Source: a virus. From it: a stretch of 64,000 nt of DNA. Positions 9,559-58,611 of this stretch are shown piece by piece. The DNA lies in IMG/VR virus record IMGVR_UViG_3300044974_000943; one strand, 5' to 3'. The notes beneath the pieces are model-generated. The model was given only the letters and a program-made list of their open reading frames with translations. It had not been told where the DNA came from and ran no database searches. Positions within the stretch are counted from its first letter, which is position 1. Each line of letters opens with the position of its first letter. Both the position numbers and the translations under genes were made by a program.

Positions 9559-12129
9559 TTAATGGCATTTTGCCCAATTATAATTAACCATAATTTCAGT
9601 CTGCAAATGAACACTTAGCTTAAGAAGTTTTTCAGTTTTTAATATAGCATCGGATATAGCTCTAGAGATATCGTTCGGAAGGACTATATACCAATTTTTG
9701 TCGTGCATTAAAGGAGAGATTTGTTCACCTTTCCAATTTTCCACAAACTGACGACCTTCTTCTTCACTAGTAAACTTTTTGATTTGTACCATGTGTTTTT
9801 TGATGCGGAGAGCTTGTTCATCGTGCATATGAATCATCTCAGCTACATCAGGTTCAGCTACAAAACAATCAATACAATACCCTTTTTCCTCCAAAATTTG
9901 CATTGACAAAACATTAGTATATTTGGCACAAATAATGCCTGTAGACTGAAACAAAAAATTAAGTAGAGAGTGCTTAGAACGTGTATTAATTTTTCTACCG
10001 TCGATTGTTCTTATCCAAGTTTTACCATTTTTGTTCCAATGTTTTTCCAAGTTGTCGCGCAACTCTTTTAGTGCAGGAACAGCTTGCCAATACTCATCGT
10101 AAATTCTTTGTCCCTCTTTTAAAGAGACAGACAACATTTTTGCAACTTTGGCAGGTTGACAACCATAAATTAAGGCATACTGAAGAGATTTTGCATCGCT
10201 TCTGGGTATTCCTAATTTAATGCTGTTTTTGGTGTGAATGTCATTGGGTTTGACAGCAACCAAATCTTTTGCCAACTCTTCCCCATTCGTGTATTTTAAA
10301 CACCACAAAGCCATCACCATCGCTTCTAAAGATGAAAAGTCATAGGAGAATTGAAAAGCCCCAGAGCCACACCCAAAAAGCTCTCGCATTTGAAAACCGT
10401 AAGTGCTGGTAACTCTGGGTATGTTAGTGATGCCGATATGTCGATAACGATGACTTGCGGCTCCAATTTCGATGGCTGGTGCAGGTATTCTTCCATCAAC
10501 CTGACGATATTGGTTTAAATATCCTGAGTTTGGCGGATTATCCTCGTTAAACTCCCACTCTTCATCGTCAACACCACCTGCAATCGAATTTTTGCGGTGT
10601 TTATAGGTAAGATACAGAGCGAAATCTTTGGCAAACGCAACTTTTTCTCCAATTTTAATAAGAGACGGGCAAAGCTCTTTCTCAACCCCGACCCGTATAC
10701 AAGGAGAAGTGGGGACTACCACTGGTCGATTCCCTTTAATTTTCTCTGCTAGAGTAGGAAACAGATTTTCTTCGTTCAGTTCAAGAATCTCTAATCTTTG
10801 CTCTTTATACTTACCATCTTCGATAGTTTCTTTTACATAGCGTCGCAAAGCTGCCAAACGTTTTTCGTAAGGTATCGATTGTTTTTTAGAGTCGCAGATG
10901 AGGTTCCTAACCCGAAATTCGGTGGGTTGCCAATTTTTTGAAATAAGGACAGACTTCACCCAGTCGATATCGTCAATATCTGCTTTAATATGGCTCTCTA
11001 GCGGTTCATTATAAGGCAAGAGATACATTTGCCCCTTATAAAATAGAAGCCACTCCTCGTCGATTTTTTCGATAGTAGCACCAACTCTTTCAGTAAAACG
11101 TAGCATCACATCGCTAGGTTCAGTAAACTCAGGAACTAGAGCTTCGTAGTAAGGCAATTGAAAAGTCTGACCACCAAAAATGAAACTAAAATCTCCTTCG
11201 GTATACTCAATTTCTTCTTGGTTGGTTAAGAACTTAACAACCGCAGACGAAAGTTTACCGTCTTTCTTGATTTGTACTTTAGGAAGATAGACAGCTTTAT
11301 GAATTTTTAATTGATTAACGGGAGGAGTGACTTCTGCAAGTTCCCCTTTATTACGAGGTTTTGGAGGAAGAATTGGATTAATGGCATCCGCAATCGCTTT
11401 CATTTTCTCTTGGAGGTCAGCAACCGCAATTTTCGCTTTTTCAACGTCAAATGCGAAACCAAGGTGTTCTCGTCTTACTCCAAGGTCACACAACTTCGCC
11501 TCCATCTTAAAAGCTTGATGCCAGCCCGAATATTCCAAGTACTCAGCCCACAAGCGCTGAAACAGTTTGCAAGTAACTACTGTATCTTGCTGACAATAAT
11601 CAAGCAAAAGGGGTGTCCAATTTAGGAACTGTTCGCCTTTGGGGGAATTTTTTTCAATATAACCCGCAGCAATACAAGCAGCACGATAATCTGACTTCTC
11701 TGTTCCCAACCGTTGACCCCAAACTTCGAGCGAATGTCCCATGCCTTCAGGGGTATAGCGGTCAGGACTTAGCAAGCGAGATAAGAGCAACGTATCAACA
11801 ATTTGGCAAGATTGCCCAAACACTATATCGGGCTGGTCAAGATATCCAATTCTGTAATCAAGAATACCAAATAGCTTCAACGCTGGAAAGTCGAACGAGA
11901 TGCCATTATGAGCTACCAAGTGTGTGCAACCATGCAAAACAGTTCTGAGCCAGTGCTTAGTAATTTCCTCCTTCTCGGCTGAGTGCGTCTCTCCTGTTTC
12001 CACGTTTCTTACAACAACACAGTGCAACTTCGCGCTAGGAAGTAACTTGTAGGGAAAACCAGAATAGTCCAACATACCTGAAAGGAGGTTATTAGTTTCA
12101 ATGTCAATCGCCAAAATTCTATCTAACAC
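9559..12129 (-). CDS. polA: Family A (T7-like) DNA polymerase with 3'-5' exonuclease
   Basis: Exo motifs DIET, HNGISFD, YCQQD; motif A DFSSLE, motif B RSDAKSLQYALIYG, motif C HDE; T7-like NWAKCH end. Confidence 0.95.
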   Translation of the reverse strand: MLDRILAIDIETNNLLSGMLDYSGFPYKLLPSAKLHCVVVRNVETGETHSAEKEEITKHWLRTVLHGCTHLVAHNGISFDFPALKLFGILDYRIGYLDQPDIVFGQSCQIVDTLLLSRLLSPDRYTPEGMGHSLEVWGQRLGTEKSDYRAACIAAGYIEKNSPKGEQFLNWTPLLLDYCQQDTVVTCKLFQRLWAEYLEYSGWHQAFKMEAKLCDLGVRREHLGFAFDVEKAKIAVADLQEKMKAIADAINPILPPKPRNKGELAEVTPPVNQLKIHKAVYLPKVQIKKDGKLSSAVVKFLTNQEEIEYTEGDFSFIFGGQTFQLPYYEALVPEFTEPSDVMLRFTERVGATIEKIDEEWLLFYKGQMYLLPYNEPLESHIKADIDDIDWVKSVLISKNWQPTEFRVRNLICDSKKQSIPYEKRLAALRRYVKETIEDGKYKEQRLEILELNEENLFPTLAEKIKGNRPVVVPTSPCIRVGVEKELCPSLIKIGEKVAFAKDFALYLTYKHRKNSIAGGVDDEEWEFNEDNPPNSGYLNQYRQVDGRIPAPAIEIGAASHRYRHIGITNIPRVTSTYGFQMRELFGCGSGAFQFSYDFSSLEAMVMALWCLKYTNGEELAKDLVAVKPNDIHTKNSIKLGIPRSDAKSLQYALIYGCQPAKVAKMLSVSLKEGQRIYDEYWQAVPALKELRDNLEKHWNKNGKTWIRTIDGRKINTRSKHSLLNFLFQSTGIICAKYTNVLSMQILEEKGYCIDCFVAEPDVAEMIHMHDEQALRIKKHMVQIKKFTSEEEGRQFVENWKGEQISPLMHDKNWYIVLPNDISRAISDAILKTEKLLKLSVHLQTEIMVNYNWAKCH

Positions 12130-12253
12130 TCAATTTCTCCTTTAACTCGTTTATCTCTTTCTGCTGTTTGCATACTATCTCTTTCAATTTGGCTACTTCA
12201 AGCACAGTAACTCGTAAATATTCTGCTATAGTCTGAATTTGTTTTTCCATTCT

Positions 12254-12904
12254 TTAACTCTCCAAATAATTGACTACAAACTTCACAAAATCATCAAAAT
12301 GAGAATGATTATCAAAATCATTATTATCGAGCCAGTAGTCAGGTATCTCTACCTTGTTGTAAAAATCCCACTGCAACAACTCACTCTCTGGCGGGTGATG
12401 CTCATAATTTTCTCCAAATTGTGCAGACTCACGATGACACTGTAAAACAGCAGCTTTTTCATTGTGAATATACACAACTTTTCCACCCTGAGAACGTACC
12501 CAATCTAGCTCATTTTGATAACGTAAATCTGAAATGAGTAAAATACTTTCAGAAGAATTGTATCTTCTGTCAAGAGCATTAATAAAAACATCTTCGCCAA
12601 GTTCTTCGCGGAGCAATTGCCCTACTCTTTTCTGCACATCTCTCGAAGACCACTTAGACTCGATGCCAGAGCGATTATAGCCAAATACAAAACGCTTCTC
12701 TTCTTTCAAACTGCGGTCTTGCAGTTCCTTGCCACTGATGCCAAGAATAGGTGTTACAGCTTCATTTAACGAGTCTGCGAAGCGGCAACGCACCGTAGAC
12801 ATAGTGTAGCGGTGCTGATATATCAATCGAGACTGCAAGCGATTCATTATGAAGTCTTTACCAGAGTTTATTGAACCGCAGCAACAGATAATTTTCCTAG
12901 ACAT
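12254..12904 (-). CDS. Deoxynucleoside monophosphate kinase
   Basis: P-loop GSINSGKD, FADSL, RDVQKRVG, ISDLRYQNE, HPPESE. Confidence 0.85.
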   Translation of the reverse strand: MSRKIICCCGSINSGKDFIMNRLQSRLIYQHRYTMSTVRCRFADSLNEAVTPILGISGKELQDRSLKEEKRFVFGYNRSGIESKWSSRDVQKRVGQLLREELGEDVFINALDRRYNSSESILLISDLRYQNELDWVRSQGGKVVYIHNEKAAVLQCHRESAQFGENYEHHPPESELLQWDFYNKVEIPDYWLDNNDFDNHSHFDDFVKFVVNYLES

Positions 12905-13097
12905 TTTTCCTTACCTTCTCACCGATAACAACGATACCTATACTAGAACCAAAAAACACAGCAAACTGAGTCAAGTAACCTTTTGCATCTTTAGGGTAGA
13001 TGGCAGTAAGTATTAGTGCAGATAGACTTGCACCAAATAAGACTGCTGTAGTTTGCAAATAGTACCGCAGAAATAGCCTATTAAAACTCATCCTCAA
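12897..13097 (-). CDS. Small two-TM membrane protein
   Basis: Two hydrophobic stretches in 66 aa. Confidence 0.5.
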   Translation of the reverse strand: MRMSFNRLFLRYYLQTTAVLFGASLSALILTAIYPKDAKGYLTQFAVFFGSSIGIVVIGEKVRKNV

Positions 13098-14733
13098 TAA
13101 TCTCCTCAGTTACAACTGAACTCACATTACCAGCAATACCATCAATTAGCATCTCCTCTAGGACATACCCTGTGCCAGCTTCATCTACTACTGTGTAGGT
13201 AACGTCACGCAAACTTGCCTTTTCGCTTCTTGCGGTAACAGTGAAATCTTCGCCATTATGTGAAACTACATCACCAACTTGATACAAGAATGAGGTCGTC
13301 AATTGCTTCAGTCGCTCACGCTCCTCGTCAGAAAAGAGAAGTTTGAGGGCAGCTTTGCGGCGGTCAGCAGTCCAATCGTGTGTCAAGTCATACAGAGCGC
13401 GTTTGTCGCGTAGTTGCATCATGTTATGGGCATCTAGGACGGCAGGGCTATATTCTTTAGCAGCTTTCTCTGGCTCAATCATCCAAAGTGACTCAGACGG
13501 CATCGCATAGACGTTAGTAGTACCGTTGTGCTTCTGAATAATACTCTGATTATCGACAAGGCATAGCAGACTTTGTTTCAACTCAAAACTAGAGCCTAGA
13601 TTACTGAGGTCTTTCAACGTAAACTCTTTATCAGGATTAGTCGAGAAAAATCGAAGTAGCTTACCAGTTAAGTTGTCGTCAAGGGTTTGAGACTCGGATA
13701 GCACCTCAAGACCCCACAGACCATCTTCTTGCGTAATTTGGCGATACTCGATAGTGATTGGCTTGCCTTGGCGCGGAAGTGTCGTTAAAGTGATTGGTAA
13801 GTTGTTATCAGAGCTATACTCGTCCTCTTTTTTCTTAAAGATTCCGATGATACCCGATGAGTTCGAGGCGATACTAGTCGAACCAGACAAAGCAGCTACC
13901 AGATTGCCCTTTTTACCATCCTTAGCACCTTGTTTGCTGAAGTGGTGAATGAGAATACCGCAAGTATCGGTCTGAACGAATACTGCCTGAATTTTAGCGA
14001 TGATTTTACCAAATTCCGACGTATTTTCTGAGTGTTCGCTGTTACTTGTGGAGGCGCGAAGCGAGTCGATGATAACTAATGTAGGTTGATGCTTGATAAT
14101 CTGCTGCTGAAGGTATGGGATATCGATAGTAGCGTCGAATAAGCGCTCGAATACCAAACAGTCGGGGTCAAAGTTGACTTGCAAACTGACTTCGTTGTTG
14201 TTTTTAGCGCCAAAACCAGTCATATGCGCCCTTTCAGCGATAGTTCTGCGGTCTTCTTCCAACTGAAAGTAGAGAACCTTACCTTTGCGAACGGGCATAC
14301 CCAAAAATCTTCCTGAGATGATAAAAGAATAGGCGAGATGATAGCCCATCAAACTTTTACCAGTCTTAGGGGCAGCACCGAAAATGTAAAGCCCTGAAGT
14401 GCGGAGAAAATTAGGAATAAGCCAGTTGTCAGTCGGGTCATAGCTTGCGAGAACGTCACGAATATTAACACTGCGCTCGAATGTTGGTTTAGGTGCAACA
14501 ATATCTTCGATGTCGTGATTGATTACTTTGGAATCGAAGCCCAAAATTGGATACCACTTCTTTTCAAGGCAAGACATAAGGTAGCGCTTGACCAGCTTTT
14601 TGTTCTGCAAATCTTTGTCGCTCAGTGTATCGATATAGTTTCGCAAATCTTGTTGGTACTCTGCGAAAATTTGTACTTTATTTTCAAGTGTGAAGTCAAT
14701 TTTCTCTAAACCGAGGCTTTCTGTGTATTGCAT
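13081..14733 (-). CDS. RepA/AAA_25-type (SF4-like) replicative helicase
   Basis: Walker A GAAPKTGKS, LEE, Walker B IIDSL, ILIHH, SGS; adjacent to primase. Confidence 0.85.
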   Translation of the reverse strand: MQYTESLGLEKIDFTLENKVQIFAEYQQDLRNYIDTLSDKDLQNKKLVKRYLMSCLEKKWYPILGFDSKVINHDIEDIVAPKPTFERSVNIRDVLASYDPTDNWLIPNFLRTSGLYIFGAAPKTGKSLMGYHLAYSFIISGRFLGMPVRKGKVLYFQLEEDRRTIAERAHMTGFGAKNNNEVSLQVNFDPDCLVFERLFDATIDIPYLQQQIIKHQPTLVIIDSLRASTSNSEHSENTSEFGKIIAKIQAVFVQTDTCGILIHHFSKQGAKDGKKGNLVAALSGSTSIASNSSGIIGIFKKKEDEYSSDNNLPITLTTLPRQGKPITIEYRQITQEDGLWGLEVLSESQTLDDNLTGKLLRFFSTNPDKEFTLKDLSNLGSSFELKQSLLCLVDNQSIIQKHNGTTNVYAMPSESLWMIEPEKAAKEYSPAVLDAHNMMQLRDKRALYDLTHDWTADRRKAALKLLFSDEERERLKQLTTSFLYQVGDVVSHNGEDFTVTARSEKASLRDVTYTVVDEAGTGYVLEEMLIDGIAGNVSSVVTEEIIEDEF

Positions 14734-15668
14734 CCTTTTAATAATCCTAATAATTCTTCTCTAGTACAAATTTCCCACGAATCGATTGCGTCAGCCGCAT
14801 CATAATTTTTTTCTGACTCTTTGCCGAGCAGTTCAGCAATATTGTAGCTCGATGCGTTTATGCCAGACTTCCATGCTTCATGTAAGAACTTTTGTGCTTT
14901 AGCTTCGCCTACTTCGTCATTATCGGTTAAATAGACGATATTACGCACCTTGTAACTCAAGCACCTCATGAACTTGGCTAGATAGCTTTGTTGATATACG
15001 AAACTTGGAAAGCTCAGTGCTGCGATTCCTATTTGCTGAAGCGCCGCCGCGCATTTTTCTCCTTCAACGAAAATAACAGATGATTGAGCATACTTTGATA
15101 AGTAGATTGGGACGTTTCGGAAGGTTGTAGGAACTTCATTTACCCATTCTCCATTGTCTTTTTTAATACGAAAGTAGAAGAACTTTTTCTCGCCGCTATT
15201 GGGTGCGGGGTCGATGCGATTAACGGTGAAATCGTCATATTTGTAGATTGTTAATTTTTTACCGTCCTCAAAGAAGGTGTGCCAAGGTTTTTCATAGGGC
15301 AAAGAGGAATAGAATTGAGTGACATCGATTTTAGTGAGGTTTAGTGGTAGCGGTTTTATGATATCAAATGTCAAAGGTAGACGCATCTTCCTTGAGTTGT
15401 ATTTACTTCGAGGAGGTTTAAATTCTCCTTTAGTTAAGTATTCTCTAATTGGGTTTGGATTAATACGTTGACAATCATTTGTATAGCAAGAATAAGCACC
15501 ACTTTTAGTTCCTGAACTAACAATTTTAAGGATTCCACCGCAAGCTGGACATTTTGCTTTAATCCAACTGGAGTGATGCTCAAGTTTTTCTAAATCATCC
15601 AATTTTTGCAGGTAATTCAATATTAGAAACACTATTCTCCGACTCCGTTTGTGCTGAGTACTGTTCAA
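14706..15668 (-). CDS. DNA primase (Zn finger + TOPRIM)
   Basis: CPAC...C...C zinc finger, FVEGEKCA, DND; true start probably near 15600. Confidence 0.82.
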   Translation of the reverse strand: MNSTQHKRSRRIVFLILNYLQKLDDLEKLEHHSSWIKAKCPACGGILKIVSSGTKSGAYSCYTNDCQRINPNPIREYLTKGEFKPPRSKYNSRKMRLPLTFDIIKPLPLNLTKIDVTQFYSSLPYEKPWHTFFEDGKKLTIYKYDDFTVNRIDPAPNSGEKKFFYFRIKKDNGEWVNEVPTTFRNVPIYLSKYAQSSVIFVEGEKCAAALQQIGIAALSFPSFVYQQSYLAKFMRCLSYKVRNIVYLTDNDEVGEAKAQKFLHEAWKSGINASSYNIAELLGKESEKNYDAADAIDSWEICTREELLGLLKGCNTQKASV

Positions 15669-16632
15669 TTATCTGTTGTAAAGGCAAGTCTATACTAAAG
15701 CATTCTTGCATACCATTAAACTTTATTTCAGGTAAGTATTTATAAAACTTGTATTTCCTTTTTAATTCGACTTCTAAATCAAATATAATTTTAGGATTCG
15801 TATCTATAACCTCATGTATCACAGTAGTACTATAAGGTATATGGCTGGCTCGGTATGAGGTTTTTAAATATGTCCTACCTATTTTGTAAAAATGTTCGCT
15901 GCCATTGGTTAGAGAGAGTATATATAGTTTAAAACTATCGAAATACTTAGATATTTCCGCACTTTTAACCCAATTACTTAACCCCCAACCAGTAGGATTT
16001 TCAGCATGATATTTTAAATTAGTTTCGTACCCACACTTATAACATCCATGACCAGTTAAATGACCAGCAGGACTTTGTAAGTAACTCCCATGTTCTCTAC
16101 AAACTATCTCGACAGGAATTTTAGCTGTTTCATAAATAGTTTTTGAGTAATCATATTTACTTCCGTGTATTTTTCTTGCTTTTTCTTCAAAAGTTTGTCT
16201 TGCAAGTTCCTTTACTGGCTCCAATCGATTGAGTGTACCACATTTTCTACAACCTGCACCAAATAAATGTGCATTTGCGGATTGCAGGTAATCCCCATGA
16301 ATACTGCAAATTATAATGCTTTTTGTTCTAGATGTTTTATAGATAAATTTTTCATAACTATAAACATTATTGTGAACTTCTTTTGCCTTTTCAACAAACA
16401 TCTGTCTTGCATTTTCGGTTCTAGCTTTACCTTTCATAACTATTGCACATTGCCTACAACCTACGCCTTGTAAATGACTTTGGGCGGTCTGTTGAAAGTC
16501 TCCGTGAGAAGCGCAAGTGACAGTTATTTTATTGTCTCCCCCTATATAAATACTATTTGTATAATCGTATTTATCTCCATGAACTTGTTTAGCTCTAGTT
16601 ATAAACTCTTGAGTTGTTAATCTTCTAGACAT
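15595..16632 (-). CDS. Putative homing endonuclease with three CxxHG...CxxC repeats and a C-terminal GIY-YIG-like domain
   Basis: Three repeats of F..KA..VH...YDY...CxxHG..Q....HL.G.GCxxC; LYIL...YKIGRT; AT-rich, inserted between exonuclease and primase. Confidence 0.75.
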   Translation of the reverse strand: MSRRLTTQEFITRAKQVHGDKYDYTNSIYIGGDNKITVTCASHGDFQQTAQSHLQGVGCRQCAIVMKGKARTENARQMFVEKAKEVHNNVYSYEKFIYKTSRTKSIIICSIHGDYLQSANAHLFGAGCRKCGTLNRLEPVKELARQTFEEKARKIHGSKYDYSKTIYETAKIPVEIVCREHGSYLQSPAGHLTGHGCYKCGYETNLKYHAENPTGWGLSNWVKSAEISKYFDSFKLYILSLTNGSEHFYKIGRTYLKTSYRASHIPYSTTVIHEVIDTNPKIIFDLEVELKRKYKFYKYLPEIKFNGMQECFSIDLPLQQIIEQYSAQTESENSVSNIELPAKIG

Positions 16633-16638
16633 AATAAG

Positions 16639-17583
16639 TTAGCGTATTAATGTAATTTCTTTAGGGATATTGTTTTCCCATTCACAAGTATCGTAATTGT
16701 ACCTACCATTTGCATGAGACACCATTTGCCGCCAAGATTTTTCTAGTTTTTTTACACCATAAAAGTCTCGAAGGATTTCTTTAAAAACCTTAAAATAATA
16801 GTTCAAATCTTTACGATTTAAGTAGCAAATTTTGCAGTCCTCTTCATTGACGTATACCAATGTTGCACCGACAATTCCTGCACCATAAATATCTTTGAAA
16901 TTTGTCTGTTTGGTCAACGCAGCCGCATAGAACGACAATTGGAGACAGTTCTTAAACATCATATCTACTACGTCTGTGCGTGGCAAGCTTTTTTTCTTGA
17001 TTTTTCCAGTCTTAGGGTTTTTTTGGTACGAGCGTTTTGTCTTGAGGTCGGCAATAATAAATTGAGGCTCATCTAAAATTTCTCCGTTTTTGAATTGAAA
17101 TACGTTTGCTGGAAGACAAAGGAGTTGGTCGTACCTGCCAGCTAACATTAGTGGTTCAGGATTTTTCGTCTCTAGCAAAGCGTTGTAGAAGAGGGGCATT
17201 TCGGCATTTGCAAATTCGGGTTCCACGTAACTATAAAAATTATCTATAGCAACAGCAGCTATTTTTTCTTCTACAAGATTGCCGAGACAATATACACCTT
17301 GCAATATATATTCCTCTACTAGAGAGTGGGCGGCAGTACCCACTCTTGCACTCTCAGCAGAAATCTCATCAGGGTCTTCACCCAAACTCCTCATCTTATC
17401 GCCCCACACCTCCAAAATATCTTCACCCTTATCATTCGTTAAATCTTCGTATTGACTTAACACAGTCGTTGTGCTGGCACATTTTAACCCGCACACAGAC
17501 TCATACTGACGCTTACCATTCTCTTCTGTAACTTCCCCTTTATATTTGATAAAAGGTTCGTATTCAAACAGTTTCTTAGCCAT
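16639..17583 (-). CDS. PD-(D/E)XK exonuclease (lambda-exo/Cas4-like)
   Basis: GTAAH, E, GRYD, DLKT, LQLSFYA motifs; close to ERF and SSB. Confidence 0.78.
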   Translation of the reverse strand: MAKKLFEYEPFIKYKGEVTEENGKRQYESVCGLKCASTTTVLSQYEDLTNDKGEDILEVWGDKMRSLGEDPDEISAESARVGTAAHSLVEEYILQGVYCLGNLVEEKIAAVAIDNFYSYVEPEFANAEMPLFYNALLETKNPEPLMLAGRYDQLLCLPANVFQFKNGEILDEPQFIIADLKTKRSYQKNPKTGKIKKKSLPRTDVVDMMFKNCLQLSFYAAALTKQTNFKDIYGAGIVGATLVYVNEEDCKICYLNRKDLNYYFKVFKEILRDFYGVKKLEKSWRQMVSHANGRYNYDTCEWENNIPKEITLIR

Positions 17584-17799
17584 CAACCACTCACAAACAT
17601 AACAGTACCAAATAATGTAACGGGACACTTAATATTAATTTGTTCGCACTGAACTTCAGGATTGTAATGCAAGAGCAAATCTATATCGTTAGGAGATTTT
17701 TGAGCTTCTATAAATTTAGAAGCGTGTTCAAGTGGTATTTTATACAGGGTAATCGCGCCTACACAATTCACCCAAACCAGATGAAAATGAGTAAATGTA

Positions 17800-18468
17800 T
17801 TAGGTTCCACTGCTACCAAAACCCCCTCTATTCTTATTGCCAACCACTTCAGACCAAAATATACAGTTTTCCTCTGTAAAATCTAGTCTAATGTGTAGTA
17901 TAGAATCTAAATTAGGGGCTATCACCTGAAGCAAACGGTCGCCAGCATCTATACGCGATTTACAACCCCTAATGCCGAGTTGGGGATGATAGTCAAGATA
18001 ACAACCTAAAGTGTCGCCAAACCAATGATTTCCGTCACTCCAAGTAGATTCAATCCCGCGATAAGTCTCATCGATTGTTCCCACACAATTAGCAAGACGA
18101 AAAGGTGTTTTGCCGATACTACTGCGAGGTCTAATGTCGAAATGGCAAGGAATAATTTCTTCTTTTCTTGCAAAATACTTTACAGTCTCTTTCAGTGCAT
18201 CCTTTACACACTGACCAATAGCAAAACCAGCAAACTCTACTCTGATGTCGTACATTGCGAAAACAGTCTCGAAGCTAATTAAACCGATAGTCTCGACAAC
18301 TTCAGCATCATAAGGCTTTACATCGCTGACAAATGGTAAATCAATGCCAGCATCGCCAACTTTGTTGTATATAGGAGCAGAGCTACCATAGAATCGCTGC
18401 GCTGCGTCAGAAAGAGGGAGAGATATAAGTAATTTCATGATTTTTGTGTATTTGTGAAACTTGCCCAT
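17800..18468 (-). CDS. dut: Trimeric dUTPase
   Basis: DAGIDL, PRSSIGK, GTIDETYRG, Q, RGGFGSSG. Confidence 0.92.
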   Translation of the reverse strand: MGKFHKYTKIMKLLISLPLSDAAQRFYGSSAPIYNKVGDAGIDLPFVSDVKPYDAEVVETIGLISFETVFAMYDIRVEFAGFAIGQCVKDALKETVKYFARKEEIIPCHFDIRPRSSIGKTPFRLANCVGTIDETYRGIESTWSDGNHWFGDTLGCYLDYHPQLGIRGCKSRIDAGDRLLQVIAPNLDSILHIRLDFTEENCIFWSEVVGNKNRGGFGSSGT

Positions 18469-18980
18469 TCCGATGAGCTAAAAATTACCGATTGTCCAGA
18501 AGTGAATTTGAGGATTAGCCTAGTGCCTCCGTATTGGAGGTATTTGTCGTCATTATCTAGTTCGGCATTAAGTCTTTTCAATTCTTTGCTGACCTCTTGC
18601 TCCGTACCATCACAGTCACTGACGATATAGGCTTCCGTCACTACTTTGCCAAATATTTTCCTGACTTTAGTTAGTAATTGAGAACTCTTGAGCGCCCAAG
18701 TTTTAGTTCCTTGAATATCTACTTTTACCATAGCAGTCCTGAATAAGTTGAAAGGACGGCATACTTAATGAGCCGCCCCTCGTAAAATGTCGAACCACCT
18801 CTATCTAGTATTAACTCAGTCCTTCCCTTTAGAAACAGCAGTAACTGACGAGCAGGTAGTTGGGGCTTCTTAATCGGGCTATGTGAGCAAGTTAGTAGAT
18901 TCACCTCGGATGTGCTGTATCTAGGCAATACTAGAATATTGGAAGAGATATGTTTTTAATGCCGACCGACATTGAATTAT

Positions 18981-19373
18981 CTAGAAATCGTCCGAGTCGT
19001 CTTCTTGTGCAGGAGTCGCAGACTTAGTTGTAGCCGCAGCATCCTTCGCCTTAGCCTTTTCAAGTACAACAACAGGGAACAGAGTGTATCGGTCAAGAGA
19101 GTAGTAAGTCTTCTCGCCGCTTTCATCAGTGCGACTTCTTAACAAACCCTTCACTAGAACCTTATCGCCAATTCCAATGCTTTCATCGTCACTGTGGACA
19201 GAAAGGAAAACGCTTGGGGCATACTGCTCAGCACCTTTGGCAGCAGTATTAACGGATACACCAAGGTCAGCATACCCAGCGAAGTCGTCACCTCTTGCGG
19301 GACGAGAAGTACGAACGTAACCAACAAATTCTTTAACTTCGCCAGAACCGAATGCAGAAAATAAAGGAGCCAT
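18981..19373 (-). CDS. Single-stranded DNA-binding protein
   Basis: OB-fold-like GDKVLVKGLL, acidic tail EDDSDDF, next to ERF. Confidence 0.7.
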   Translation of the reverse strand: MAPLFSAFGSGEVKEFVGYVRTSRPARGDDFAGYADLGVSVNTAAKGAEQYAPSVFLSVHSDDESIGIGDKVLVKGLLRSRTDESGEKTYYSLDRYTLFPVVVLEKAKAKDAAATTKSATPAQEDDSDDF

Positions 19374-19447
19374 GTGTTTTTGTTTCTTTGTTTGAATGTA
19401 GTTAGTTTATCGAAAAGTCGTAGCTGAAGTATCCATCTAAAGGATGA

Positions 19448-20143
19448 TTAAGCAGCCACTTCGGGAGCAGGGCTTTTATTAGGATTATAGCGTTCGCGAT
19501 TTTCCCAACATAGAATCTTCCACTTACCTGCTGTATCGTAGTGACCCTTCTTAGCAAAAGCGTCGAACTTCAGGGCGCGTTCGTCATCACTTGAGTGGCA
19601 GTAAGGAGCATGAGCCTTAGCCCATTCTAGGCACTCTTTCTTGGAGTATGCAAGAGGTTGCACTTCGGCTTGAGCAGCACTAGCAGCATTACCGTCATCA
19701 TCGGCATCAGCAGACAAATTAAGAAGCGCACAGATAGAATATCGTCGAGCGTAGGTCAGTGCAGAGCCTTTTTGTTGCTCGTTAGCTGGGAGTGTAATTG
19801 GGTAGTCAATTTGAAAGCTTTCGCCAGTTGGTGCAAACGTGATTCTTGTGACAAGATTTGTTTGCTCTTCTACTTTCTCAAAGAAGCTGAAAAGAACCAA
19901 GTTGTGTCTTAACAGAGGCTCACGAATAGACTTCATAATGGAGTCTAGGTCAGCATACTTAGACTTGAAGTGAGGGTTCAGCTTGTCCTTGATGATTGGC
20001 GTAAACTCAAGTTGTGCCTTGACAAGTGCAGAAAAGAGATTGTCGGGTTGGGGGAGGGTTTCTGGTACGTCAGGCACGTTGTCTTCAGTAACAACAATTG
20101 AGTCTTCAGTTTGGTCGATTGTCGGCAGTTTTCTAGGAGCCAT
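19448..20143 (-). CDS. erf: ERF-family ssDNA annealing recombinase
   Basis: KDKLNPHFKSKYADL, GSALTYARRY, DDDG. Confidence 0.92.
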   Translation of the reverse strand: MAPRKLPTIDQTEDSIVVTEDNVPDVPETLPQPDNLFSALVKAQLEFTPIIKDKLNPHFKSKYADLDSIMKSIREPLLRHNLVLFSFFEKVEEQTNLVTRITFAPTGESFQIDYPITLPANEQQKGSALTYARRYSICALLNLSADADDDGNAASAAQAEVQPLAYSKKECLEWAKAHAPYCHSSDDERALKFDAFAKKGHYDTAGKWKILCWENRERYNPNKSPAPEVAA

Positions 20144-22297: not shown

Positions 22298-22320
22298 TTT
22301 TACATCCCTTAGATAAGATG

Positions 22321-22347
22321 AAAGGCACTCGTATCCTGAGTGCCTTT
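22321..22347 (-). terminator. Terminator hairpin ending the tRNA-like ncRNA
   Basis: 10-bp stem AAAGGCACTC/GAGTGCCTTT. Confidence 0.7.
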
Positions 22348-22705
22348 CTTTTAGTATTTACAACATACTGTTATATTTTACTTTTCGCCTTTGCTTTGTT
22401 AATATCCTGTGGTGATGGTTGAGTTTTATATTAGCAGTACTACCATTGTACTTACCTCGCCATGATAAAGGCAAGGATTGGATTTGAACCAACATCGCTA
22501 ATTGTTTACCATCAAACTTCGACGCAAAGAAAAAGGTTTGATAATGAATTTGGAGCAATAACTTCAATTTCACTTTTAGATTGAGCCACACAACTTCGGG
22601 TTTTTAATCCGAATGCGTCTACCAGTTCCGCCAACTCCCGTTAAATCGGGAATCCTAGAGTCGAACTAGGAATGTTGTGTTTTGATAAGCTTTAACTTAC
22701 GCTCT
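22325..22705 (-). ncRNA. ncRNA with two circularly permuted tRNA-like (YrlA-topology) modules
   Basis: Module 1 at 22680-22588 and module 2 at 22502-22430, each ordered T-arm > acceptor stem closed by a short loop > D-arm; TATATT -10 at 22717-22712 and a downstream terminator. Confidence 0.8.
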
Positions 22706-22757
22706 TTAATTAATATACTCGACCCACATACTATCCCGCATCTACCTAAAGACAGAT

Positions 22758-22784
22758 AAAAAAAGCGCTCCCGAAGGAACGCTC
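22758..22784 (-). terminator. Intrinsic terminator after the 254-aa gene
   Basis: AGCGTTCC-TTCG-GGAGCGCT followed by a T-run. Confidence 0.8.
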
Positions 22785-22788
22785 TCTC

Positions 22789-23553
22789 TTATTGCAACGG
22801 TGCAGTCAGATAATCCGTAATATCTTTTCCGATTTTAAACGGAATCACCTCAATGGCGTTCGCACCTTCCCTTGCTACTACAACAGCCTCTAGAAGCTTC
22901 TGAGCGCGACTGACGAGTGCTTGCTTGGTAGTTTGGTAAATCGCACCACTATAGCTGATTTGCTCCCACACACCTTCATTGATATCTTGGCTGTACTCTT
23001 TGACTTGAGCAGGATGTTTGTCGGTCAACGTACCTTCAATGACCTTCCAATCAGTGATTTTCTTGGTCTTGTTAGTGCGTCGAACTTCAGATTCGTACAA
23101 ACCAGTGTTGGGGTCAATGCTCCACTTTTCTGCGCTGTCGAGAACAGGCAATGAATCAAAGAATGTAACGATGTCCGTTAGCTGCTTCTCAAGAAATAGC
23201 AAGCTCGAAACAGGAACATTCTCAGCGATTGTAGTACCATTAACCACGATGTTACCAACTGCGGCTTGGTTTGTCTTGTCAAGAGTAGTAATTGTATCAA
23301 ACAATTCAACTACCAAAGAAGTGAAAGCTGTAACTTGGTCTTTCACATTAGTTTGTGCCAGTTTCGATTCGGGAGGATACACATAACCATCTTCAGCGTT
23401 AGGGCGATAAGTCTTGCTCAGTCCACCAAACAGGTCACGCTTTTGAATTGTTTTATAGATTTCGGTCTTCGCCTTGCTGACGCGAGATTTTACTCCTTCA
23501 GAAATAGCAAGCAATTGATGTAAAAGAAGACCAGATGTAGTCGATTTAGCCAT
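22789..23553 (-). CDS. Conserved hypothetical protein (TDKHPAQV-motif family), candidate partner of the downstream ncRNA
   Basis: 254-aa ORF with GLSKTYRP, LLFLEKQL, LPVLD, TDKHPAQV, SGA and AREGAN, a pattern I recall from phage/bacterial hypothetical proteins. Confidence 0.75.
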   Translation of the reverse strand: MAKSTTSGLLLHQLLAISEGVKSRVSKAKTEIYKTIQKRDLFGGLSKTYRPNAEDGYVYPPESKLAQTNVKDQVTAFTSLVVELFDTITTLDKTNQAAVGNIVVNGTTIAENVPVSSLLFLEKQLTDIVTFFDSLPVLDSAEKWSIDPNTGLYESEVRRTNKTKKITDWKVIEGTLTDKHPAQVKEYSQDINEGVWEQISYSGAIYQTTKQALVSRAQKLLEAVVVAREGANAIEVIPFKIGKDITDYLTAPLQ

Positions 23554-24188
23554 GATAGTTTTAGATTAATTTTGATAGTTTAATTAGATTACAGAAAAGG
23601 ATGTTGAAGTGCATCTATCTTCAGGAATAAACAATGTTGCCAGTGTTCAAATCGATAATACGCAAGCTAGTTCGAGGGCTGACCCTTGCATAAGGCTCAA
23701 ACACAACACTGATAAACGTATCGAGGCTACCAGTAAACGCTACCAAACCGTAGAAAACCCACTGGCGTTGGGTGGCAGAAAAGAATTGAAGGTTATACAT
23801 TTTCCCTCCGTAATGTGATTTCGTGTTTTATATCTGGGGCGTACAAGTAAGGTTCTCCAAGCTTATCGATGGTATCTGCAATATTGGTTAAAGCTTCGTT
23901 GAATCCGATTTTAGCTGCAATTGCAAAGTATGCCGCAACATCTTCGTCTCTAGGTCGTTCGGCTAGAAACTGCTCGACAAGTTTATCTAAATTCATAATG
24001 ATAACGCCTTGACTAAAATAATATCGTTGACCAACAATACTAAAAATGCAACAGGAATAATAATTTTCGCAAGTTGCCAACCGTTTTTAGTAAATCGCGC
24101 TTCATGTGCCTCTACAGCTTCCCGCGCAATCTCTTCTGTTGATTTGTTGGGTAAATAAATGTCGTTCTCGCTAGTTAATCGCGCCATG

Positions 24189-56937: not shown

Positions 56938-58611
56938 ATGACAAGCGCACGAAGTAAGCAAAAGCAATCAAATGACATGAGTGAAGCCGAACTCCGCAAG
57001 ATGAGTGACGCGCTCGATGATGTGTTGGCAGAAAAAGCAAGTAAGAAGTTGCGCCATTTCTATGCATGGGCTTGGGGGTTTCATCAAGGCGTTTCTTTAG
57101 AGAAAAATTGGCACATTGATTGTGTTGCTGAACACGTAGAGGCAGCTTTAAACCGCCAAATAAAGCGGTTAATCGTTACTGTACCTCCTCGTAGCGGGAA
57201 GACGACCATTACCTCTATTTCTGCCCCAGCATTTAGGTGGATATCTCACCCTGAAGAAAAATTCTATCTAAGTTCGCACAAACTAGGATTATGTACCAGT
57301 AACCTTATTGCAACTAGAAATATTGTCAATCACCCAGACTATAAAAATAGGTACTGTAACCCAGACAGTCAGTGGTTTAGCTTTAAATTGTCAGATGACC
57401 AATCAACTAAAACTAAGATTAGCAATACAGGTAAAGGAGAAATAAACATATCATCTCCTGATACAGGGATTATCGGTAGTGGAGGAACTGTATTTCTCAT
57501 AGATGACATTATCGATGAAGAGATGTACAAGAATGAGTCTATACGAGAACAAAGAAACAAATGGGTAACTGACCAACTATTCGGAAGAACTAACGATTTT
57601 AACTCAGATGTCCGAATAGCTATCAACCAAAGATTAGGCGATAGTGACCTTGTAAATCACCTACACAATAAATTTATAGGTGAAGACTGTTTTTTTGAGC
57701 TTTGTGTTCCTGCTGAGTTTGCTAAGCGTAAGACGTACTTCTCGCCTTTAGGGGAAAAATGGAACGACCCCAGAAAAAAGGAAGGGGAGTTACTAGATAA
57801 AAATAGAATACCTTTGAAATTGTTAGATGGACTAGACCCCATAAGACGTAAGACTCTATTCAATCAAGACCCGTCAGGTGGCGGTAAGGGTATCACGCTT
57901 GACGAGAAAGATATTCGCATTGTGTCACAGAAGCCAACTAAGATGGACTCGATGCTTATTATGTGGGATTTGACCTTTGCGGCATCAGAAGCGTCTACAA
58001 GCTGGAATCTCGGCGCAGTGGTAGGCAGAAAAGAAGATAACTACTATGTCATTGACGGCATTCGCGCTAAGCTGGACATCGTAGGGCAAATGGCAGCTAT
58101 TAAAAAGTTAGCTAAAAAATATCCTCAAGCTGAAATTGGTGTTGAGGCAAAAGCTAATGGTGAAGCAGTGATGCGGTTACTGGCTAGTGAGTTCCCTAAC
58201 ATTGTACCTTTCAGACCTAGCGTGTGGGGCGGCAAGACACAGGCAGACAAAGAAAGGCGATTTGGTGCTGCTGTACCTTTCATTAAAAATGGGCAACTGT
58301 ATTTCTACAAACCTCATTCAACCGACTACACTCTTGACGAGACATACGACCCAGACCACGCTATTAATGAGTTGGTTGGATTCCCGCTATTTTCAACTAA
58401 CGAGTGGGTAGACGATGTAAGTTATGCAATCGGCTACCTAAGCCAAAAAACCAGCAACAGTACCATCATGCTATTTGGCGACAGCGACCACAAACTTACT
58501 GAAGACGAGTATTGGGCAAAACACGACTCAAGTTATAATGAATCCAATGACTTCTTTATTTTCACTGATAGCGTACCTAGCACAGAAGATATCAATAGTA
58601 TTCAATTCTAG
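56938..58611 (+). CDS. terL: Terminase large subunit
   Basis: Walker A PPRSGKT, Walker B LIDD, NQR coupling motif, nuclease WD...EAKANG...WVDD. Confidence 0.93.
   Translation: MTSARSKQKQSNDMSEAELRKMSDALDDVLAEKASKKLRHFYAWAWGFHQGVSLEKNWHIDCVAEHVEAALNRQIKRLIVTVPPRSGKTTITSISAPAFRWISHPEEKFYLSSHKLGLCTSNLIATRNIVNHPDYKNRYCNPDSQWFSFKLSDDQSTKTKISNTGKGEINISSPDTGIIGSGGTVFLIDDIIDEEMYKNESIREQRNKWVTDQLFGRTNDFNSDVRIAINQRLGDSDLVNHLHNKFIGEDCFFELCVPAEFAKRKTYFSPLGEKWNDPRKKEGELLDKNRIPLKLLDGLDPIRRKTLFNQDPSGGGKGITLDEKDIRIVSQKPTKMDSMLIMWDLTFAASEASTSWNLGAVVGRKEDNYYVIDGIRAKLDIVGQMAAIKKLAKKYPQAEIGVEAKANGEAVMRLLASEFPNIVPFRPSVWGGKTQADKERRFGAAVPFIKNGQLYFYKPHSTDYTLDETYDPDHAINELVGFPLFSTNEWVDDVSYAIGYLSQKTSNSTIMLFGDSDHKLTEDEYWAKHDSSYNESNDFFIFTDSVPSTEDINSIQF

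What the first reader, a model, noticed from the sequence alone, without database searches (positions are those of the whole stretch)
22325..23553. 254-aa gene plus a ~380-nt RNA with two circularly permuted tRNA-like modules: candidate new RNP system
Seen in sequence. Module 1 (22680-22588): ACACAAC att CCTAG TTCGACT CTAGG ATTCCCG a tttaa CGGGAGT tg GCG gaactggtaga CGC a TTCGG attaaaaac CCGAA GTTGTGT. This is a Leu-type scaffold opened in the variable arm, with an aberrant 9-nt anticodon loop. Module 2 (22502-22430): ATTAG cgat GTTGG TTCAAAT CCAAT CCTTGCC t ttatcat GGCGAGG ta AGTAC aatggta GTACT g CTAAT. It is opened at the anticodon loop, so it has no anticodon. In both, the acceptor ends are joined by a 5-7 nt linker. 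The RNA has its own -10 box and terminator. Established: bacterial YrlA Y RNAs have this T > acceptor hairpin > D topology and usually sit beside Ro60/TROVE genes; no TROVE gene is visible in this window. Inference: a non-decoding tandem tRNA-mimic RNA paired with the uncharacterised TDKHPAQV-motif protein. It could act as a decoy for anticodon nucleases or tRNA-sensing defences, or be cut by RNase P/Z into a multi-piece aminoacylatable RNA.
Basis: partly seen in the sequence, partly recalled or inferred. Interest (0 to 1): 0.88.

Follow-up and report, generated by a model that had tools for sequence, protein, structure and literature searches.

The report
Two-headed tRNA-mimic RNA beside DUF7873
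A cyanobacterial phage carries a protein gene of unknown function followed by a folded RNA of about 390 bases that holds two back-to-front tRNA look-alikes; the same gene-plus-RNA pair recurs in most related phage and bacterial loci sampled, so it is probably an unstudied RNA-protein machine built on tRNA mimicry.

Summary
Both circularly permuted tRNA-like modules exist at the stated coordinates. They covary strongly among six variants from Pseudanabaena phages. They are the only two such structures in the 142-kb phage genome.

The 254-aa gene is Pfam DUF7873. It has no recognisable fold or named relative. In 142 of 168 DUF7873 loci from other phages and at least eight bacterial phyla, one or two such modules lie 50-900 nt downstream on the same strand. 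No other gene is a conserved neighbour.

Across the family, module 1 is Leu-type (A73, three-pair D stem) and module 2 is class I (U73). The acceptor linkers are enriched for N-CCA, G+1 and U-1, which are the marks of RNase P and 3'-end processing.

The closest known thing is YrlA, above all the Mycobacterium smegmatis form. The window nevertheless fails the YrlA tests: no Rfam match, no Ro60 gene in the phage, and variable T stems. Ten of 14 DUF7873-positive cyanobacterial genomes lack a TROVE match.

Best reading: a Ro60-independent particle in the style of a Y RNA. Protein-RNA binding, RNA processing and function are all inferred. This scan has reported the same pair many times on other DNA. 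I found no paper on it.

The parts
23611..23620 (-). AGATAGATGC motif about 58 nt upstream of the DUF7873 start codon. It is one of only two AGRTAGATGC sites in the window.
   Evidence: 2 matches, 0.19 expected; 3 in the whole 142-kb genome; conserved in all five relatives.
22789..23553 (-). DUF7873 gene, 254 aa, carrying the near-invariant T-x-x-HPAQ, KTKK and RE-x-AN motifs.
   Evidence: Pfam PF25283, E 1.6e-86. 149 homologues. Invariant columns. AF2 model pLDDT 90 with no clear structural relative.
22758..22789 (-). Intrinsic terminator of the DUF7873 gene: 14-bp stem followed by a T run.
22738..22747 (-). AGGTAGATGC motif about 35 nt upstream of the first conserved RNA base. It is followed by the -10-like TATATT at 22717-22712.
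   Evidence: The block is invariant in 7 sequences. In PA-SR01 it stays with the RNA across a ~490-nt insertion.
22320..22705 (-). Whole non-coding RNA unit, about 385 nt. The 5' end is inferred. The 3' end is at the terminator hairpin.
   Evidence: ORF 22358-22591 inside it is not conserved, because indels in the linkers shift the frame.
22685..22704 (-). 5' GAGC (pairs with GCTC at 22586-22583 to enclose module 1) plus a small hairpin GTAAGT/GCTTAT.
   Evidence: RNAalifold helices 1 and 2; invariant, so neither supported nor contradicted by covariation.
22588..22680 (-). Module 1: a permuted Leu-type (class II) tRNA mimic opened in the variable arm. Discriminator A. Anticodon-like hairpin with a 9-nt loop AUUAAAAAC.
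   Evidence: Compensatory changes in the T stem (3 of 5 pairs), the acceptor (4 of 7) and the D stem (2 of 3). In the anticodon stem, C-G in the window becomes U-A in L003.
22541..22576 (-). Invariant hairpin or single-stranded track whose UAUUGCUCCA element (22560-22551) is conserved across phyla.
   Evidence: The same ATTGCTCC core appears in loci from Streptomyces, Nostoc and viral contigs.
22506..22535 (-). 5' strand of the long stalk under module 2. It includes GTCGAAG (22523-22517), which matches the YrlA motif GNCGAAN0-1G.
   Evidence: Helices 7-9: 12 of 23 pairs change on both sides, 7 of the 8 in helix 9. Motif test: 5 of 44 diverse loci match; the family consensus at this spot is (A)ATCGA(C).
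22430..22502 (-). Module 2: a permuted class I tRNA mimic opened where the anticodon loop would be. Discriminator T, G+1, T-1.
   Evidence: T stem 4 of 5 and acceptor 5 of 5 counted pairs change on both sides.
22381..22419 (-). 3' strand of the stalk, with the invariant internal loop CCACAGGAUAUUAAC.
   Evidence: The family-wide counterpart is UUAAAYG, opposite AUCGA.
22320..22348 (-). Terminator-like hairpin that ends the RNA.
   Evidence: 6 of 9 pairs change on both sides among the relatives.

Best explanation
The locus encodes a two-part module. The parts are the DUF7873 protein and a separately transcribed structured RNA of about 385 nt.

The RNA presents two tRNA-shaped 'heads', each made of acceptor/T stack, elbow and D arm. 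Head 1 copies the upper body of tRNA-Leu. Head 2 is a class I tRNA top that sits on a long covarying stalk with a conserved internal loop. An invariant track (UAUUGCUCCA) lies between the heads.

I propose that the protein binds conserved non-helical parts of this RNA, namely the track and/or the stalk loop. The result would be a Ro60-independent particle in the style of a Y RNA. Its heads would engage host factors that recognise tRNA shape.

In many family members the short acceptor linker is probably opened by RNase P, and the 3' side is trimmed to, or extended with, CCA. That would leave a nicked RNA still held together by base pairs.

Shown: the structure, the covariation, the gene-RNA linkage, the linker signatures and the absence of Ro60.

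Inferred: transcription, protein-RNA binding, processing, and the cellular target.
For: - Structure and covariation: (94.6% paired; 36 pairs change on both sides; 0 of 500 shuffles reach this).
- Uniqueness in the genome.
- Linkage: 142 of 168 DUF7873 loci have one or two modules 50-900 nt downstream on the same strand, with only 14 hits elsewhere. Many apparent misses have modules with 23-37 nt linkers. All 12 full-length DUF7873 genes found in an even sample of 201 cyanobacterial genomes have a module. No other conserved neighbour gene exists.
- Separate transcription unit: a terminator lies between gene and RNA. PA-SR01 carries a ~490-nt insertion there. The same 10-mer precedes both gene and RNA and occurs nowhere else in the window.
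- A natural swap: a contig with an identical DUF7873 protein carries an RNA whose acceptor and T stems all differ, while the track and loops are kept. Recognition therefore cannot depend on stem sequence.
- Processing marks: N-CCA directly after the acceptor 3' strand in 36 of 71 viral and 19 of 87 bacterial unique modules (chance 1 in 64). G+1 in about 85%. U-1 in 53-68%.
- Module identities are conserved across phyla: module 1 has A73 in 61 of 76 and a three-pair D stem; module 2 has U73 in 46 of 69 and a four-pair D stem.
- Precedent: M. smegmatis YrlA, with a 7-bp acceptor, is cut by RNase P and receives CCA in vivo (PMC4201824).
- Ro60 not needed.
Against: - No transcript, binding or processing data exist for any member.
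- DUF7873 is mildly acidic (pI 5.8) and has no recognisable RNA-binding fold.
- In this window neither linker encodes CCA, and module 1 has C+1 and A-1, which make a poorer RNase P substrate.
- Some relatives extend the acceptor into a long closed hairpin (L057), so opening the linker cannot be universal.
- An earlier check in this scan (e1-2703945) reported tests that went against the pairing as a general rule among far relatives.
- My loci are the best-scoring 80 from each collection, not a random sample.
Confidence: 0.55

Rival explanations
1. It is a true YrlA-class Y RNA that the phage supplies to capture the host's Ro60 (Rsr). DUF7873 is only a neighbour.
For: - The T > acceptor > D topology on a stalk matches YrlA.
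- GTCGAAG (22523-22517) matches the Ro60-associated motif GNCGAAN0-1G (PMC4201824).
- The YrlA model aligns full length to module 2 in relatives at 26-38 bits.
- 32 of 201 sampled cyanobacterial genomes have a TROVE match.
Against: - The window has no YrlA match even at E<=10.
- The phage has no TROVE match.
- The motif is present in only 5 of 44 diverse loci.
- 10 of 14 DUF7873-positive cyanobacterial genomes have no TROVE match.
- The RNA tracks DUF7873, not Ro60.
- T stems vary freely here, whereas they are conserved in YrlA (10.1101/312249).
Confidence: 0.1
2. DUF7873 is an enzyme or chaperone that acts on the RNA, for example by modifying, cutting or ligating it. Alternatively, the RNA is a sponge or autoregulator for DUF7873 expression. 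In either case there is no stable particle.
For: - The invariant polar residues (E122, Q124, K165, H180, Q183, D190, R228, E229, N232) could form an active site.
- The 5' UTR and the RNA track share AATCTAAAA, and in Pam2 both carry AACCT instead.
- The same upstream 10-mer precedes both units.
Against: - The family-wide test for sequence shared between UTR and RNA is weak (mean 7.41 against 7.20, p 0.045).
- No catalytic fold is recognised.
- A regulator would not need two elaborate tRNA mimics.
Confidence: 0.15
3. It is a second trans-translation RNA of the two-piece tmRNA kind: charged at an opened acceptor, with the inter-module track serving as a tag template.
For: - The gene order is that of permuted tmRNA genes.
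- N-CCA is encoded in many relatives.
- A weak local match to tmRNA_permuted falls on module 1 of L028.
- Pam2 has a tmRNA-like element nearby.
Against: - ARAGORN and Rfam find no tmRNA in the window or the phage genome.
- Neither window module has G3.U70, and it is rare in the family: 4 of 76 and 8 of 69.
- No reading frame is conserved through the track or module 2.
- An earlier report in this scan also rejected this reading (e1-5633710).
Confidence: 0.05
4. These are permuted or split genes for working, decoding tRNAs. Module 1 would be tRNA-Leu(UAA), matured through a circular intermediate as in Cyanidioschyzon.
For: Re-permuted module 1 is called a class II tRNA. It is called tRNA-Leu(taa) if two loop bases are removed.
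Against: - The native loop has 9 nt.
- The anticodon hairpin is absent in Pam2, L004 and L005.
- Module 2 has no anticodon loop at all.
- From established knowledge, bacteria lack the splicing endonuclease that such genes need.
- Both modules are welded into one conserved RNA.
Confidence: 0.03
5. These are decayed remains of tandem tRNA genes, or a chance resemblance, and have no function.
For: The T arm of one tRNA followed by the D arm of the next can imitate this topology. Chen et al. raise this caveat (PMC4201824).
Against: - The flanks are not tRNA-like.
- Compensatory changes maintain every helix.
- The arrangement is conserved next to one gene across phyla.
Confidence: 0.01

Closest known systems
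YrlA-class bacterial and phage Y RNAs with Ro60/Rsr (Rfam RF02553; Chen et al. 2014, PMC4201824; Wang et al. 2018, bioRxiv 10.1101/312249), above all the Mycobacterium smegmatis form
   Same: - Both have a circularly permuted tRNA-like domain (T arm, acceptor hairpin, D arm) on a stem formed by the flanks.
- Both keep the tRNA elbow signature (TTCRA T loop, GG D loop, U8).
- The acceptor has 7 bp, as in M. smegmatis YrlA, which RNase P cuts and which receives CCA.
- A motif like NCGA(A) lies on the 5' strand of the stalk, and an AAACU-like loop on the 3' strand.
- The Rfam model aligns end to end with module 2 in relatives.
   Different: - There are two heads in one RNA, and head 1 is Leu-type.
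- The partner gene is DUF7873, not Ro60. No TROVE match was found in the phage or in most sampled carrier genomes.
- Scores are far below the Rfam gathering score, and the window gets none.
- T and acceptor stem sequences are free to vary.
- There is an extra conserved track.
Two-piece (circularly permuted) tmRNA of cyanobacteria and alpha-proteobacteria (Rfam RF04321, RF01851)
   Same: - The gene order is T arm, acceptor 3' strand (often with CCA), short linker, acceptor 5' strand.
- The tRNA-like head sits on a long stalk.
- Phages of this clade carry a candidate permuted tmRNA close by.
   Different: - There is no G3.U70, no conserved tag frame and no pseudoknot series.
- The D arms are full tRNA D arms.
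- The partner is DUF7873, not SmpB.
Circularly permuted tRNA genes of red and green algae and of Thermofilum (PMC3978253, PMC3218864)
   Same: The 3' half of a tRNA precedes its 5' half, with a short joint at the acceptor ends.
   Different: Those genes yield normal decoding tRNAs through a circular intermediate made by the splicing endonuclease and a ligase. Here there is no working anticodon loop, and the modules stay part of a larger RNA.
Pfam DUF7873 (PF25283)
   Same: The 254-aa protein is a full-length member (E 1.6e-86).
   Different: The family has no described function, structure or partner. The RNA link is not part of its description in any library or paper I could search.

Membership tests
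YrlA / Y RNA (RF02553) | Permuted tRNA-like domain (T arm, acceptor stem-loop, D arm) closed by a stem made of the flanking sequence | tested here: met
YrlA / Y RNA (RF02553) | Reaches the Rfam gathering score (69 bits) | tested here: not met
   The window has no match at gathering or at E<=10. Relatives score 26-38 bits.
YrlA / Y RNA (RF02553) | Encoded within a few kb of a Ro60/TROVE gene on the same strand | tested here: not met
   No TROVE match in the 142-kb phage genome. In cyanobacteria only 4 of 14 DUF7873-positive genomes have a TROVE match. In the handle-resolved genomes the TROVE match lies away from the DUF7873 locus.
YrlA / Y RNA (RF02553) | GNCGAAN0-1G motif on the 5' strand near the 5' end | tested here: inconclusive
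   GTCGAAG is present at 22523-22517. Only 5 of 44 diverse family members match; the family consensus is (A)ATCGA(C).
YrlA / Y RNA (RF02553) | Conserved T-stem and D-stem sequences (Wang et al. 2018) | tested here: not met
   The T stems of both modules change completely between close relatives.
YrlA / Y RNA (RF02553) | Bound by Ro60 in cells | not testable with these tools
   Needs immunoprecipitation.
Two-piece tmRNA | Detected by ARAGORN or by the Rfam tmRNA models | tested here: not met
Two-piece tmRNA | G3.U70 alanine identity pair, and a conserved tag frame ending in a stop | tested here: not met
   Module 1 has G3-C70 and module 2 has C3-G70. Reading frames shift among the relatives.
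Permuted decoding tRNA gene | An intact 7-nt anticodon loop and a cloverleaf after re-permutation | tested here: not met
   The cloverleaf is recognised. But the module 1 loop has 9 nt and is absent in three clade members, and module 2 has no loop.
Pfam DUF7873 (PF25283) | Full-length match above the gathering score | tested here: met
   E 1.6e-86, 290 bits against a cut-off of 27, residues 11-250.

The most novel reading that the evidence does not exclude
After RNase P cutting and CCA maturation, the two heads become chargeable. Head 1 would be charged by LeuRS, which reads A73 and the Leu-type elbow and ignores the anticodon. Head 2 carries U73. With DUF7873 standing in for the missing anticodon arms, as SmpB does for tmRNA, the particle would enter the ribosome as a two-headed tRNA mimic filling two tRNA sites. 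That would be a new system for ribosome rescue, hibernation or takeover, shared by phages and bacteria.
Probability: 0.08. Interest if true: 0.95.

Novelty: new variant of a known kind. Interest (0 to 1): 0.78.

Why it matters
Only a few RNAs that mimic tRNA are understood, among them tmRNA, YrlA and the viral tRNA-like structures. Each has revealed a new way of using the tRNA machinery.

This RNA has two tRNA heads and its own dedicated protein. In phages the pair often lies inside tRNA gene clusters.

If the protein and the RNA form a particle, it would be a Ro60-independent counterpart of the Ro/Y RNA system. It would also give the large DUF7873 family a function. It is directly testable in culturable systems: Pseudanabaena phages Pam2 and PA-SR01, Streptomyces, and Nostoc.

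Tried and rejected
- Rfam at gathering and at E<=10 gave nothing relevant in the window.
- ARAGORN in the native order found nothing.
- For DUF7873: PHROGs, NCBIfam and PADLOC gave no match. A profile search of PDB sequences gave only chance-level hits. Foldseek against PDB and BFVD gave nothing at E<=0.001. The all-against-all VIA-align search gave at best 3kdq_A (Z 7.7, rmsd 8.4 A over 146 residues), which is within the noise the tool describes. The ESM Atlas gave only unnamed clusters at 0.81.
- The YrlA motif GNCGAAN0-1G does not hold as a family feature: 5 of 44.
- A small protein encoded by ORF 22358-22591 is rejected, because indels shift the frame among relatives.
- A loose version of the promoter-like motif is not enriched genome-wide. 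Only the tight 10-mer is specific.
- The idea that the DUF7873 5' UTR and the RNA share repeats has only weak support.
- I expected CCA in the linkers to follow the habit of neighbouring tRNA genes. It does not: the modules carry CCA even where the adjacent tRNA genes lack it.
- The sharp drop in identity at the RNA relative to L007 is a general mosaic breakpoint, not RNA-specific hypervariation. The next gene downstream is also only about 80% identical.
- Burroughs and Aravind 2016 and the 2020 Ro60 review are not in the held library. I could not check whether they foresaw a Ro-independent partner.
Full report
**What is there.** The window comes from a 142-kb phage record. Its nearest named relatives are Pseudanabaena phages Pam2 and PA-SR01, at 82-84% nucleotide identity over 22300-23600. 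On the minus strand, ORF 22789-23553 encodes a 254-aa protein that is a full-length member of Pfam DUF7873 (E 1.6e-86).

A strong terminator follows the gene at 22789-22758. After it come, in order:
- a conserved block with the motif AGGTAGATGC (22747-22738) and a -10-like TATATT;
- a stretch of about 385 nt with no conserved reading frame;
- a second terminator-like hairpin at 22348-22320.

**Is it more than chance?** ARAGORN and Rfam see nothing in the native order. I wrote a strict descriptor for a permuted tRNA top half: a 5-bp T stem, a TTCRANN loop, a 7-nt acceptor 3' strand, a 3-15 nt linker, a complementary 5' strand, two bases, and a D arm with GG. It finds exactly these two sites in the whole phage genome, against one hit in twenty shuffled genomes.

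Once re-permuted, module 1 is called a class II tRNA. It becomes tRNA-Leu(taa) if two bases of its 9-nt loop are removed. Module 2 is called an ordinary class I cloverleaf with any loop supplied.

Six distinct variants of the region were collected by flanking homology, not by structure: the window, Pam2, PA-SR01 and three IMG/VR contigs. They give an RNAalifold consensus of 88 pairs, 36 of which change on both sides. On that MAFFT alignment:
- 94.6% of cells pair, against 81% in column shuffles and 39-49% when partners are slid;
- 0 of 500 shuffles reach any of the five measures.

The T stems and acceptor stems of both modules are replaced wholesale between relatives. For module 2 the T stem reads GTTGG/CCAAT, GGGGA/TCCCC or AAGAG/CTCTT, and the acceptor reads CCTTGCC/GGCGAGG, CTCGCCC/GGGCGAG or TTTTGGC/GCCGAAA.

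**Anatomy beyond the two modules.**
- Module 1 is enclosed by GAGC/GCUC, next to a small 5' hairpin.
- An invariant hairpin or track lies at 22576-22541. Its UAUUGCUCCA core is recognisable in loci from Streptomyces, Nostoc and unrelated viral contigs.
- Module 2 sits on a long stalk (22535-22506 paired with 22419-22381). In one stalk helix 7 of 8 pairs change on both sides.
- The stalk holds a conserved asymmetric internal loop: GUCGAAG opposite CCACAGGAUAUUAAC here, and AUCGA opposite UUAAAYG across the family.

Only the upper half of module 1 is constrained. The window, PA-SR01 and L003 keep an anticodon-like hairpin and close the module in the variable arm. One stem pair there shows a compensatory change, C-G to U-A. 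Pam2, L004 and L005 lack that hairpin and close directly after the D arm. The RNA therefore does not decode.

**Link to the protein.** DUF7873 is widespread. I found 149 homologues in the near-length search. They come from cyanobacteria, actinomycetes, planctomycetes, Chloroflexota, Abditibacteriota, myxobacteria, Verrucomicrobiota and Acidobacteriota.

In 168 loci outside the window's own clade, the strict descriptor finds:
- one module in 71 loci and two modules in 71 loci, 50-900 nt downstream of the stop codon on the same strand;
- only 14 hits anywhere else.

Many of the 26 misses have clear modules with linkers of 23-37 nt, and some of those linkers fold as hairpins. All 12 full-length DUF7873 genes recovered from an even sample of 201 cyanobacterial genomes have a module.

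Clustering all flanking ORFs shows no other gene family that recurs beyond close synteny. The unit is therefore the gene plus the RNA.

My loci are the best-scoring ones from each collection. An earlier check in this scan reported tests that went against the pairing as a universal rule among far relatives. I claim the linkage only for the loci I searched.

**Gene and RNA are separate units that travel together.** Several facts show this:
- A terminator lies between them.
- PA-SR01 has a ~490-nt insertion there, and the AGGTAGATG motif stays with the RNA.
- AGRTAGATGC occurs only twice in the 64-kb window, once before the gene and once before the RNA. The expectation is 0.19, and 1 of 100 shuffles reaches two. 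It occurs three times in the whole genome. This suggests shared control.
- One IMG/VR contig is 98-100% identical to the window from 25000 down to the DUF7873 stop codon. Identity then falls to 40-94% across the RNA, and the next gene is about 80% identical.

That last contig is a natural swap. An identical protein is paired with an RNA whose acceptor and T stems all differ, while the track, the loops and the stalk loop are kept. Whatever recognises the RNA cannot be reading the stem sequences.

**Signs of processing.** Among unique modules, N-CCA directly follows the acceptor 3' strand in 36 of 71 viral and 19 of 87 bacterial cases; chance is 1 in 64. The first base of the 5' strand is G in about 85%. 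The base before it is U in 53-68%. These are the marks of a pre-tRNA seen by RNase P and by 3'-end maturation.

The two heads keep distinct identities across phyla:
- Module 1 has discriminator A in 61 of 76 and a three-pair D stem with a 10-12 nt loop. This is the Leu, class II type.
- Module 2 has U in 46 of 69 (G in 17) and a four-pair D stem with a 7-8 nt loop.

A conserved discriminator has little meaning inside a closed loop, so this favours an opened acceptor.

CCA in the modules does not simply copy the habit of nearby tRNA genes. Phage loci whose tRNA genes mostly lack CCA still encode it in the modules.

The window's own modules lack CCA, as do the phage's tRNA-Gly and tRNA-Asn genes. 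Module 1 has C+1 and A-1. Processing is therefore less certain here than in the family at large, and some relatives clearly close the acceptor with a long hairpin.

**Comparison with what is known.** The nearest described RNAs are YrlA Y RNAs. They are permuted tRNA-like domains on a Ro60-binding stem, encoded beside Ro60. M. smegmatis YrlA has a 7-bp acceptor, is cut by RNase P and receives CCA in vivo (PMC4201824; 10.1101/312249).

Rfam's YrlA model aligns end to end with module 2 plus its stalk in 7 of 12 diverse DUF7873 loci, at 26-38 bits against a gathering score of 69. A distant relationship or a convergent design is plausible.

Membership fails on four tests:
- The window gets no YrlA match even at E<=10.
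- The phage has no TROVE match.
- T-stem sequences are not conserved.
- The Ro60-associated motif GNCGAAN0-1G is present in the window (GTCGAAG) but in only 5 of 44 family members.

In 201 cyanobacterial genomes, 32 have a TROVE match and 14 have DUF7873, with 4 in both. That is no more than a mild, non-significant excess by my own reckoning, and ten carriers have no TROVE match. Ro60 is therefore not required.

A tmRNA reading fails for lack of G3.U70 and of any conserved tag frame. A reading as a permuted decoding tRNA fails on the anticodon loops.

**The protein.** AlphaFold2 gives a confident alpha/beta model with pLDDT 90. Foldseek against PDB and BFVD, the wide VIA-align search, a PDB profile search, NCBIfam, PADLOC, PHROGs and the ESM Atlas give no informative relative. 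The pI is 5.8. Invariant polar residues could serve binding or catalysis. I cannot tell which.

**Verdict.** The best reading is a Ro60-independent, two-headed tRNA-mimic RNA that works with DUF7873, probably as a particle. In many members the acceptor linkers are opened by the tRNA maturation enzymes. Binding, processing and biological role are inferred.

No paper in the held library mentions DUF7873 or a permuted tRNA-like RNA of this kind. This scan has already reported the same pair on other DNA many times: 191 notes in at least 119 genomes.

- the linker statistics, split by module;
- the shared upstream 10-mer;
- the natural swap at the mosaic breakpoint;
- the three different ways of closing module 1 within one phage clade.

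Noticed in passing
L001:4679-4897 (Pseudanabaena phage Pam2, about 450 nt downstream of its twin-module RNA): A candidate circularly permuted tmRNA. Rfam tmRNA_permuted matches full length but scores only 17 bits against a gathering score of 47. By eye: ...ATCCTCCACCA, a 5-nt linker, then GGGGGAT (a G3.U70 pair, CCA encoded), and a tag-like frame AKNQIVKFARKSTPVAVAV-stop. Part of it is shared by PA-SR01 and one IMG/VR contig. The window's phage lacks it.
   Followed up: partly
window 23620-23611 and 22747-22738 (minus strand): AGRTAGATGC occurs only at these two places in the 64 kb, before the DUF7873 gene and before the RNA (0.19 expected). Relatives carry a third copy just after the RNA terminator, ahead of the next gene. 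It may be a local promoter or operator.
   Followed up: partly
window 22800 (the DUF7873 stop codon), compared with L007: A sharp mosaic breakpoint. Identity to IMGVR_UViG_3300042914_004664 is 98-100% from 25000 to 22800. It falls to 40-94% across the RNA and to about 80% in the next gene.
   Followed up: yes
L002:3845-4335 (PA-SR01): A ~490-nt insertion lies between the DUF7873 terminator and the RNA's upstream motif. It has a short ORF that begins MKHKEEILRLRAEGYSYNQIV, which looks like a helix-turn-helix. It could be the remnant of a mobile endonuclease gene.
   Followed up: no
L028, L029, L058, L062, L068 (viral DUF7873 loci): In several unrelated phages the DUF7873-RNA pair sits inside dense tRNA gene clusters, with 8-21 tRNAs in 5.7 kb. 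L028 also has a tmRNA. In the window's phage the only two tRNA genes (Gly-tcc and Asn-gtt) lie about 57 kb away.
   Followed up: partly
window 23600-23554 (5' UTR of DUF7873) and 22582-22571 (start of the RNA track): Both carry AATCTAAAA, and there is no obvious Shine-Dalgarno sequence before the ATG. In Pam2 both places read AACCT instead of AATCT. A family-wide test for sequence shared between UTR and RNA was only marginal (p 0.045).
   Followed up: partly
L166:9224-10017 (a chromosome contig of 3.1 Mb): A TacA/TacT-like pair lies directly after the RNA region. TacT is an acetyltransferase toxin known to act on charged tRNA. This is a single case and may be coincidence.
   Followed up: no
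window 9559-20143 and 56938-58611: The surroundings are a phage replication and recombination block: family A DNA polymerase, DnaB-like helicase, Toprim primase-like protein, HNH endonuclease, PD-(D/E)XK exonuclease, dUTPase-like protein and Erf. A large terminase lies further on. No RNA ligase, RtcB or Ro60 was seen among the large ORFs I tested.
   Followed up: partly
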